From NCBI GenBank assembly GCA_051294905.1, contig CM119371.1, positions 32,242,001-32,306,000 of the forward strand: a DNA stretch of 64,000 nt. The letters are read 5' to 3'. Origin of the DNA: Botryllus schlosseri (Eukaryota). Under the pieces are notes generated by a model that was given only the letters and a program-made list of their open reading frames with translations, was not told the origin of the DNA and made no database searches. Below are positions 56,857 to 57,510 of this stretch, in pieces (position 1 is the first letter of the stretch; the number at the start of each line of letters is the position of its first letter). The position numbers were made by a program, and so were the translations under genes.

Positions 56857-57510
56857 ATGTCGGCGGGTTTGCTGATGACTCTCACTTTACCAAACGATAT
56901 GGCATCGAACAGCGTCAACACTATGCGAGTCGGAGCAACTTCAAATTTTCACGTCGGCGTCAAATTCGTCTCATCACCCAAAAGAGGTGGCGTTAGCCAA
57001 TATCTCAAAGGTATATTCATCGACGGCAATAACGAAGAGATATCTTTCACGTGTTTCAATCGTGATTTGTTCGGGGTCATTGAGAAAGCATTCGCCAAAC
57101 GAAAAAAACTCATGGTCAAATCCGGTTGGGTCCAAATTGACAAGTTTACTGGAAAACCTGCTGTATTACTGGGACGGGCTTCGTCAGTAACTCTGCATGG
57201 AAAATCGAGACATACGACTGAAGAATACCCATTATTGACCTGTGAATCGGTATATGGAAATAAAGATGAATACGTCTCGATCGCCGCTACTTGTGTTTCT
57301 CGAGAGGAGAAGACGGTCAATTCTGGTGCCGGAAAGGAGTTGAAATTATACAGTTTTACATTGAAGGATGATACTGGTGAGGTGGTTTTGGATCAATGGA
57401 ACAAAGCCTCGCTCGTACCCGGGAAGAAATATCAACTCACTCGTGTTAAAAACTGTGTCGGCAGCTTGAAAATCGATTCGTTAACTAGACTTGTTGAATT
57501 GAAAGAATAG
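56857..57510 (+). CDS. Tandem OB-fold (RPA/SSB-like) ssDNA-binding protein
   Basis: OB1 LKGIFIDGNNEEISFTCFN; OB2 VSIAATCV...KLYSFTLKDDTGEVVLDQWN...PGKKYQL. True start may be the ATG at 56899. Confidence 0.75.
   Translation: MSAGLLMTLTLPNDMASNSVNTMRVGATSNFHVGVKFVSSPKRGGVSQYLKGIFIDGNNEEISFTCFNRDLFGVIEKAFAKRKKLMVKSGWVQIDKFTGKPAVLLGRASSVTLHGKSRHTTEEYPLLTCESVYGNKDEYVSIAATCVSREEKTVNSGAGKELKLYSFTLKDDTGEVVLDQWNKASLVPGKKYQLTRVKNCVGSLKIDSLTRLVELKE

What the first reader, a model, noticed from the sequence alone, without database searches (positions are those of the whole stretch)
56857..57510. Tandem OB-fold RPA-like ssDNA-binding protein in a Maverick
Seen: two ~90-aa beta-rich repeats with the hxDxxG.h.h..(F/W) signature (FIDGNNEEISFTCFN; LKDDTGEVVLDQWN), like RPA70 DBD-A/B or archaeal SSB. 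Known: protein-primed strand-displacement systems need an SSB (adenovirus DBP, phi29 p5), and an SSB is not among the standard Maverick core genes. Inference: the element still generates ssDNA intermediates despite its dead PolB, or shields them from host RPA/ATR sensing or recruits host polymerases.
Basis: partly seen in the sequence, partly recalled or inferred. Interest (0 to 1): 0.72.

Follow-up and report, generated by a model that had tools for sequence, protein, structure and literature searches.

The report
Polinton gene with RPA-like DNA-binding barrels
A virus-like jumping element (Maverick/Polinton) in an animal genome carries a small, conserved, transcribed gene whose protein is predicted to fold as two RPA-like barrels and likely coats single-stranded DNA while the element is copied, a fold that published surveys had not found in this kind of replicon.

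Summary
The gene is real. It lies just inside the right terminal repeat of a young 15.3-kb Maverick/Polinton (42935-58275, 6-bp target duplication). It probably starts at the third ATG (56899, 203 aa). Variants among copies are mostly silent (17 of 28, dN/dS about 0.2-0.3), and RNA reads cover it in the sense direction.

The predicted structure matches tandem OB-fold proteins over its whole length (RPA70 A/B, Teb1, HIN; Foldseek E about 2e-6). The second barrel is well supported; the first is low-confidence. Three aromatic residues are conserved where ssDNA stacking is expected. ssDNA binding is untested, and the dsDNA-binding HIN domains score equally well.

This copy's polymerase does look dead. 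But the gene is not tied to it: its DNA depth is about 7-fold that of the adjacent upstream segment. It is best read as a family-wide replication accessory gene. Recruitment of host polymerases has no support.

Other Polinton-like contigs carry unrelated candidate ssDNA binders (RPA-C-like, PC4). I found no paper describing a Polinton SSB. This scan noted the same kind of gene three times elsewhere in this genome.

The parts
56899..57510 (+). Likely coding sequence (203 aa) of the tandem OB-fold protein
   Evidence: ORF; P0001 starts here; depth step and variant pattern
56857..56898 (+).
   Evidence: first ATG lost in some copies, low depth, absent from P0001
56947..57195 (+). Predicted OB barrel 1 (low confidence; basic half, pI 10.3); holds conserved F67 and F97 (217-aa numbering)
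57256..57507 (+). Predicted OB barrel 2 (moderate to good confidence); holds conserved W181
57016..57057 (+). First motif (FIDGNNEEISFTCF), loose match only
57361..57399 (+). Second motif (LKDDTGEVVLDQW), strict match
57531..57536 (+). Possible variant poly(A) signal AATACA; sense RNA depth falls to about 1 by 57558-57590
   Evidence: role inferred
42935..43574 (+). Left terminal inverted repeat (640 nt, starts AGTAGT), preceded by target duplication AACGCT at 42929-42934
57636..58275 (-). Right terminal inverted repeat, followed by AACGCT at 58276-58281; begins 125 nt after the gene's stop
50858..54481 (-). Protein-primed polymerase B, VSR-insert type; open frame of 1207 codons, catalytic motifs degenerate, C-terminus short
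47843..48913 (-). Retroviral-type integrase with chromodomain
   Evidence: Pfam rve E 2.8e-16, Chromo E 2.2e-9
49622..50233 (-). Packaging ATPase
   Evidence: P-loop families, Pox_A32 E 0.005 below cut-off; relatives in fetched loci
43611..47643 (-). Protease, major capsid protein, small basic protein and three minor-capsid-like ORFs
   Evidence: no Pfam hit above cut-off; relatives in the same block of other pPolB contigs; the labels are mine, from recalled motifs and gene order
56383..56736 (+). Upstream co-oriented 117-aa ORF of unknown function; not part of the high-depth segment

Best explanation
This conserved, transcribed Maverick/Polinton gene encodes a protein predicted to fold as two RPA-like OB barrels, which likely coats the single-stranded DNA exposed while the element family is copied. 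Shown: the gene lies in a young Polinton next to the right terminal repeat; copies vary mostly at silent sites; copies are transcribed in the sense direction; the segment from the start codon to the repeat is more abundant than the rest of this element; this copy's polymerase has lost conserved aspartates. Predicted: two OB barrels resembling RPA70 domains A and B, without the trimerisation or protein-recruiting domains. Inferred: (1) it binds ssDNA without sequence preference, through F67, F97, W181 and basic residues; (2) its substrate is the strand displaced during protein-primed synthesis, or the excised single-stranded intermediate; (3) it does the job of adenovirus DBP, phi29 p5 or the yeast linear-plasmid SSB with an RPA-type fold; (4) this copy and other polymerase-less derivatives are copied by a working polymerase from another family member, so the gene needs no special explanation tied to the dead PolB.
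For: Fold: 57 PDB matches at E<=0.001 among the 500 counted; the top rows are tandem OB proteins aligned over 206-226 columns (Teb1 AB 1.7e-6, RPA70 A/B 2.0e-6 at 20% identity, fungal RPA-ssDNA complex 4gop 6.4e-6). Barrel 2: Z 10.1, rmsd 2.8 A, 82 residues to an archaeal OB domain; Z 9.8 to RPA70 in 4gop. Atlas features: top score 0.95, and 10 of the 10 best family-bearing hits are in one OB clan, for the query and for its 25% relative P0003. F67, F97 and W181 are invariant in P0003, and F67 and F97 also in P0004. F67 and W181 end strand 3 of each predicted barrel. RPA70 uses four such aromatics (PMC4937323, passages). Identity is higher to RPA and archaeal SSB rows (about 16-22%) than to HIN rows (7-14%). 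Selection: 17 silent and 11 replacement variants, 19 of 28 at third positions, no stop; dN/dS 0.19-0.30, P 1.6e-5 to 1.3e-3. RNA: 41.6 versus 2.4 and 8.5 versus 0.5 in the two strand columns; minus-strand genes show the opposite column. Function by analogy: protein-primed replicons often encode SSBs (PMC4889955; PMC8472843).
Against: No binding data. Model pLDDT is 53 overall and 40-55 in barrel 1, from an alignment of only 3 sequences, two of them 96% identical. Whole-chain rmsd is 15-19 A. HIN domains, which bind dsDNA, tie with SSBs (Z 10.2 versus 10.1; E 6.7e-6). No Pfam, PHROG or PDB sequence hit. The fourth RPA aromatic has no evident counterpart in barrel 2, and the residue mapping to RPA rests on predicted strand position and a recalled motif, not on a printed alignment. 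No relative was found in 72 related pPolB loci (best E 0.2), so this is not a universal Polinton gene; only 26 of those loci are 7 kb or longer. Only 41 of 346 RNA reads in X23 are 99% alike or better, so expression of this copy is not shown. The genomic context of P0003 and P0004 is unknown. Recognition for P0003 (2180) is below the Atlas threshold.
Confidence: 0.65

Rival explanations
1. The tandem OB protein binds double-stranded DNA or the element's ends (HIN-like backbone binding, or an origin or terminal-repeat recognition factor), not ssDNA in general.
For: HIN domains tie for best structural match. The gene sits next to the terminal repeat and travels with it. Yeast linear plasmids use a terminal recognition factor besides an SSB (PMC8472843, passage). 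Barrel 1 is strongly basic.
Against: Lower identity to HIN rows (7-14%) than to RPA and archaeal SSB rows. Conserved aromatics suit base stacking. Atlas neighbours are RPA and archaeal SSB-type sets, with no HIN family shown.
Confidence: 0.13
2. One reading: the protein compensates for a dead PolB by hiding ssDNA from host RPA/ATR sensing or by recruiting host polymerases.
For: This copy's pPolB lacks 4 of 14 near-invariant aspartates, yet the insertion is young. An ssDNA coat would displace host RPA as a side effect (inference).
Against: The gene's segment is about 7-fold deeper than the adjacent upstream segment and about 3-fold deeper than the capsid block in run X5 (single contigs at 35.7-39.8 versus 4.2-5.1 and 8.7-13.2), so most copies are not linked to this pPolB. 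There is no room for a domain like RPA's N-terminal partner-binding domain, which binds ATRIP and others (PMC4937323), and no acidic tail. An RPA-C-like gene lies upstream of an intact-looking pPolB in L009.
Confidence: 0.1
3. It binds RNA or another ligand, or serves as a genome-packaging or core protein in the particle.
For: OB folds bind many ligands; RNA-editing complex, tRNA-synthetase and MCM OB domains also score Z 8-9.
Against: The full-length tandem matches at the top of the Foldseek list are nearly all DNA-binding proteins. The gene lies outside the capsid block, on the opposite strand.
Confidence: 0.08
4. It is a captured host fragment or passenger with no role for the element.
For: No relatives in 72 related loci; dN/dS of 0.2-0.3 is far above the 0.001 reported for fish Maverick core genes (PMC8097293); two low-depth internal deletions exist in X1.
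Against: Excess of silent variants, no listed stop or indel in the frame, sense transcription; intronless and too diverged for any RPA sequence match; a same-length relative at 25% identity exists.
Confidence: 0.04

Closest known systems
RPA70 DNA-binding domains A and B (PDB 1fgu, 1jmc, 4gop) and Tetrahymena Teb1 AB (3u58)
   Same: Two OB barrels in tandem, aligned over the whole model (E 2e-6 to 3e-5; 12-20% identity); aromatics at the end of strand 3.
   Different: Stand-alone 203-aa protein. No N-terminal partner-binding domain and no zinc-ribbon C domain for trimer formation. No sequence-level match. Encoded by a mobile element.
Archaeal RPA/SSB OB domains (2k75, 2ken, 2k50, 1o7i)
   Same: Best single-domain matches (Z 9-10, 17-20% identity); top Atlas sets.
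   Different: Eukaryotic mobile-element gene; no evidence of archaeal origin was tested.
HIN domains (IFI16, p202, p204, MNDA)
   Same: About 200-aa tandem OB; tied structural scores.
   Different: HIN domains are solved bound to dsDNA (entry titles); identity is lower; that they are mammalian immune sensors is recalled.
SSBs of protein-primed replicons (adenovirus DBP, phi29 p5, Bam35 SSB, PRD1 P12/P19, yeast linear-plasmid SSB)
   Same: The inferred job: coating displaced strands in a replicon with a protein-primed polymerase and terminal repeats.
   Different: These are reported as unrelated to OB folds (PMC4889955) or as a very remote OB-like fold (PMC8276246); this one models as RPA-like tandem OB.
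RPA carried by other mobile elements: Helitron RPA; EhV-86 RPA; baculovirus LEF-3
   Same: RPA-type or OB-fold SSB carried by a eukaryotic mobile element or virus (PMC6431247; PMC4889955); LEF-3 and an EhV-86 protein are among the top viral fold hits.
   Different: Those elements use rolling-circle or helicase-based replication, not a protein-primed polymerase; no sequence similarity.

Membership tests
Maverick/Polinton (host element) | Terminal inverted repeats with (AGT)2 ends and 6-bp target duplication | tested here: met
   640 nt, one mismatch; AACGCT both sides; end motif described in PMC8097293
Maverick/Polinton (host element) | Integrase, pPolB, ATPase, protease and capsid genes | tested here: met
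   rve; pPolB relatives with PF03175; shared gene block; capsid and protease labels are recalled
Maverick/Polinton, autonomous | Intact polymerase catalytic motifs | tested here: not met
   4 of 14 near-invariant Asp positions replaced; about 80 C-terminal residues absent, not found in other frames
OB-fold proteins | Five-stranded barrel, domain 2 | tested here: met
   Model pLDDT 56-88; Z 10.1, rmsd 2.8, 82 residues
OB-fold proteins | Five-stranded barrel, domain 1 | tested here: inconclusive
   pLDDT 40-55; only full-length Foldseek alignments and strand order support it; not folded alone
RPA70 (RPA1) | Sequence match to RPA1 profiles or solved RPA chains | tested here: not met
   No Pfam family at E<=1; no RPA chain at E<=10
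RPA70 (RPA1) | N-terminal partner-binding domain and zinc-binding C domain for the trimer | tested here: not met
   203-217 aa filled by two barrels; fused or longer forms were not searched with the 'longer' option, but the full HMMER scan returned none
RPA70 (RPA1) | Four base-stacking aromatics in domains A and B | tested here: inconclusive
   Three candidates conserved (F67, F97, W181); fourth not evident; mapping inferred, motif recalled
Single-stranded DNA-binding proteins (function) | Sequence-independent, preferential binding of ssDNA | not testable with these tools
   Needs a binding assay
HIN domain | Pfam HIN match or PYHIN architecture | tested here: not met
   No Pfam family; structural tie only
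HIN domain | dsDNA binding | not testable with these tools
   Needs a binding assay

The most novel reading that the evidence does not exclude
Polintons have an overlooked, exchangeable ssDNA-binding gene slot, filled in different lineages by unrelated host-derived binders: tandem RPA-A/B-like here, RPA-C-like in L009, PC4 in L066. In this genome it is the gene that helper-dependent derivatives (dead-polymerase copies and, by earlier unchecked notes, palindromic satellites) keep next to the terminal repeat, because their replication passes through long single-stranded hairpin intermediates. It would be the first RPA-like SSB of a protein-primed replicon, and a handle for testing the never-tested ssDNA-intermediate model of Polinton replication.
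Probability: 0.3. Interest if true: 0.75.

Novelty: new variant of a known kind. Interest (0 to 1): 0.5.

Why it matters
Polinton replication has been proposed to run through an excised single-stranded intermediate copied by pPolB (as summarised in PMC11131425, passage). No SSB is among the listed core genes (PMC8097293). A 2016 survey stated that SSBs of protein-primed viruses have no relationship to OB-fold proteins (PMC4889955), and a 2021 paper found only a remote OB-like case (PMC8276246). A 203-aa, two-barrel RPA-like protein would be a clear exception and is easy to express and assay. It would also suggest that many unannotated Polinton accessory ORFs are replication factors. The surprise is moderate: SSBs are expected in such replicons, and Helitrons and EhV-86 already carry RPA.

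Tried and rejected
Sequence searches for named relatives gave nothing: Pfam, PHROGs, PDB sequences, phage genomes (96), viral contigs with four queries (29, 50, 51, 54) and metagenome contigs with the protein itself (41). P0002, one of the 4 hits, was dropped as a repeat-driven match (nine stretches in a low-complexity repeat). The single-sequence model (pLDDT 39.7) gave only weak OB hits. Internal sequence repeat: not significant. An estimate that the pPolB frame should hold 15-18 stops if it had drifted neutrally was rejected as evidence: the other core genes also keep only 64-87% of columns conserved in 8-16 distant relatives, so much of the loss is lineage divergence. The six RNA molecules that 'begin' at 56865 were not used as a start site; they appear to be short first mates. 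Summed contig depth in X1 was not read as copy number; single contigs of X5 were used for the ratios. The 'replication protein A' hit in PMC12220804 was a false match to 'replication protein among'. No genome is held for this window, so co-occurrence with intact or dead pPolB could not be counted. No complex prediction was sent. The nematode Maverick preprint was not held under the id I tried.

Full report
Setting. The finding lies in a Maverick/Polinton at 42935-58275 (15,341 bp). Its 640-nt terminal inverted repeats differ at one base, start with AGTAGT, and are flanked by the 6-bp duplication AACGCT. Contigs joining the two flanks without the element exist in DNA runs (table 5); the flank is itself a reverse-transcriptase repeat, so these may be other copies. 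The minus strand carries an integrase with a chromodomain (Pfam E 2.8e-16), a P-loop ATPase, a pPolB whose relatives bear PF03175 and VSR labels (the VSR-insert type is described in PMC10748475, abstract and passages), and a block that I label protease and capsid genes from recalled motifs and from shared order in related contigs. Two plus-strand ORFs follow: 117 aa, and the 217-aa ORF of the finding, which ends 125 nt before the right repeat. No genome is held. Earlier scan notes call the host a sea squirt; I did not test that.

Observation. The ORF and both peptides are there. The two halves do not align above chance (9.5% of 2,000 shuffles reach the score). The start is probably M15 at 56899: P0001 (96% identical) starts there, the first ATG is lost in some copies, and depth in both DNA runs rises about 5-fold between 56865 and 56930.

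Is it a working gene? One search showed 40 of 66 variant rows; 28 lie in 56899-57507. Of these 17 are silent, 11 change a residue, none makes a stop, and 19 are at third codon positions. Against 23-31% silent expected, P is 1.6e-5 to 1.3e-3 and dN/dS about 0.19-0.30. The 26 rows not shown were not counted. The two listed insertions fall after the stop; two low-depth internal deletions occur in X1. In two single-cell RNA runs, reads over 56929-57455 fall in one strand column (41.6 versus 2.4; 8.5 versus 0.5), while minus-strand genes fall in the other, so transcription is sense. This was the deepest of 30 bins in X23 but not in X24. Reads peak at 57360-57458 and fade after the stop. Most reads differ from this copy (41 of 346 at 99% or better in X23), so they come largely from other copies or alleles.

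Fold. Sequence libraries gave nothing. A scan of 1.84 billion representatives gave 4 hits: P0001, P0003 (214 aa, 25%), P0004 (141 aa, 32%) and a repeat artefact. A profile search added none. The Atlas placed both the query and P0003 next to the same 230-aa eukaryotic cluster (0.95) and to RPA and archaeal SSB-type sets. AlphaFold with three sequences gave pLDDT 53: two beta domains, the second confident, the first not. Foldseek found 57 matches at E<=0.001. The top rows are tandem OB proteins aligned over the whole chain: Teb1 AB 1.7e-6, RPA70 A/B 2.0e-6, RPA-ssDNA 6.4e-6, p202 HIN 6.7e-6. The rmsd of 15-19 A probably reflects domain orientation and the weak first domain. For barrel 2, VIA-align gave Z 10.1 to an archaeal OB domain (rmsd 2.8 A, 82 residues), 10.2 to a HIN domain and 9.8 to RPA70, so fold alone cannot separate ssDNA from dsDNA binding. 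Among viral models the best are baculovirus LEF-3 and an EhV-86 protein. In favour of RPA-type binding: higher identity to RPA and archaeal rows, and F67, F97 and W181 conserved in the distant relatives that cover them, two of them ending strand 3. RPA70 uses F238, F269, W361 and F386 (PMC4937323, passages); my mapping is inferred, and a fourth aromatic is not evident.

The dead polymerase. Against 120 relatives, this pPolB keeps 120 of 160 highly conserved columns; among the 106 relatives with enough coverage the median is 98% and the lowest 84% (the columns were defined from those relatives, which favours them). Four of 14 near-invariant aspartate positions are replaced, including one each in the first exonuclease motif and polymerase motifs A and C (motif names recalled). 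About 80 C-terminal residues are missing and do not continue in another frame. The N-terminal part is better kept (32 of 37 versus 136 of 202 columns, P 0.019). Control against over-reading: the other core genes keep 64-87% of columns against 8-16 distant relatives, so the lineage is divergent overall; the loss of the aspartates is the firm point. The polymerase is likely inactive, and the recent insertion likely relied on a helper (inference).

Is the gene tied to it? The data say no. In run X5, single contigs over the gene have depth 35.7-39.8; over the capsid, integrase and ATPase block 8.7-13.2; and at 54457-55003 and 56124-56622, 4.2-5.1. X1 shows the same order. Depth is not copy number, and the runs were found with 55900-57640, but the step lies inside that stretch and sits at the start codon. 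The gene and the right repeat therefore form a unit shared by more elements than carry this copy's upstream segment. Earlier unchecked notes report the gene in another Polinton and in both arms of palindromic satellites in this genome, which would explain the step.

Other Polintons. A pPolB scan of metagenomes gave 354 confirmed matches among 624 stretches, of which 72 distinct loci were returned; 26 are 7 kb or longer. None of 1,345 frames matched the profile (best E 0.2). Of 102 unassigned ORFs, I scanned 17 in Pfam. L009:2388-2867 resembles the RPA70 C domain (E 2.7e-6, 27.7 bits, just under the 28.5 cut-off; E 0.016 to a solved RPA1 chain) and lies 2.5 kb upstream of a pPolB with intact-looking motifs; that contig shows no other Polinton gene. 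L066, with pPolB, ATPase, protease, capsid and integrase genes, carries PC4 (E 3.6e-21), a weaker PC4-like ORF and TBP. That PC4 binds ssDNA is recalled. These cases suggest, but do not show, repeated capture of ssDNA binders.

Mechanism. Most likely (0.65) the protein is the family's SSB. Protein-primed synthesis from a terminal repeat displaces the other strand, and the protein would coat it, remove hairpins and protect it, as adenovirus DBP, phi29 p5 and the yeast linear-plasmid SSB do. Rivals: dsDNA or end binding (0.13), host checkpoint shielding or polymerase recruitment (0.10), RNA or packaging role (0.08), passenger (0.04).

Literature. Eight searches paired Polinton or Maverick terms with OB-fold, SSB, RPA, ssDNA-binding or PC4. 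None listed a paper whose title or abstract start describes a Polinton SSB; several rows were seen only as listings (for example PMC11662393, PMC11071213, PMC8914235). Passages were read in PMC11161782, PMC12220804, PMC8276246, PMC8502044 (plus section 3.2), PMC8097293, PMC8472843, PMC6431247, PMC4981718, PMC11131425, PMC4889955, PMC4937323 and PMC10748475. Supplement text of PMC8502044, PMC11131425 and PMC12220804 had none of the terms searched. Figure-only gene maps, bioRxiv supplements and subscription papers were not seen, and the gene could hide under a numbered 'Adintoc' name. PMC4889955 states that SSBs of protein-primed viruses are unrelated to OB-fold proteins; PMC8276246 reports only a remote OB-like case. 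RPA in Helitrons and EhV-86 is known.

Verdict. Real gene, OB fold likely, SSB role plausible but untested, link to the dead PolB not supported. New variant of a known kind; interest 0.5.

Noticed in passing
window 50858-54481 (-): pPolB keeps a 1207-codon open frame despite lost catalytic aspartates and a short C-terminus. The N-terminal terminal-protein/protease part is better conserved (32 of 37 columns) than the rest (136 of 202), and DNA depth here is the lowest in the element. It may supply only the terminal protein.
   Followed up: partly
window 56017-56120: A 104-nt, 79%-identical copy of an inner part of the terminal repeat lies between the divergent ORF293 and ORF117, followed by a 67-nt direct repeat pair (56128-56194, 56233-56298): possibly a promoter or the remnant of an older end.
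   Followed up: no
window 50233-50858 (-): Gap between pPolB and the ATPase with high sense RNA depth (16.9 and 8.5) and an apparent short GT..AG intron near 50452-50546: a spliced leader region or small spliced gene.
   Followed up: no
window 40260-42949 and beyond 58281: The element sits next to, and probably inside, a LINE-type reverse transcriptase repeat (Pfam RVT_1); contigs joining the two flanks exist.
   Followed up: partly
L009:2388-2867 (+): Stand-alone RPA70 C-domain-like ORF (zinc-ribbon OB) 2.5 kb upstream of an intact-looking pPolB.
   Followed up: partly
L066:16060-18124 (-): A Polinton contig with a TBP gene and two PC4-like genes beyond the integrase.
   Followed up: partly
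L052:2157-2951 (+) and L054:191-988 (-): About 265-aa beta-rich ORFs with an apparent internal repeat near pPolB, no Pfam or PHROG hit; candidates for another tandem barrel.
   Followed up: no
window 57325-57334: RNA reads with loose ends here show that some expressed copies have a different sequence in the first loop of barrel 2.
   Followed up: no
window 45696-47643 (-): Three consecutive minor-capsid-like ORFs (131, 223, 295 aa), where most related contigs show one.
   Followed up: no
window 30350-31194 and 58550-59379: A further dispersed repeat in inverted orientation (several arms, 82-97% alike) outside the element.
   Followed up: no
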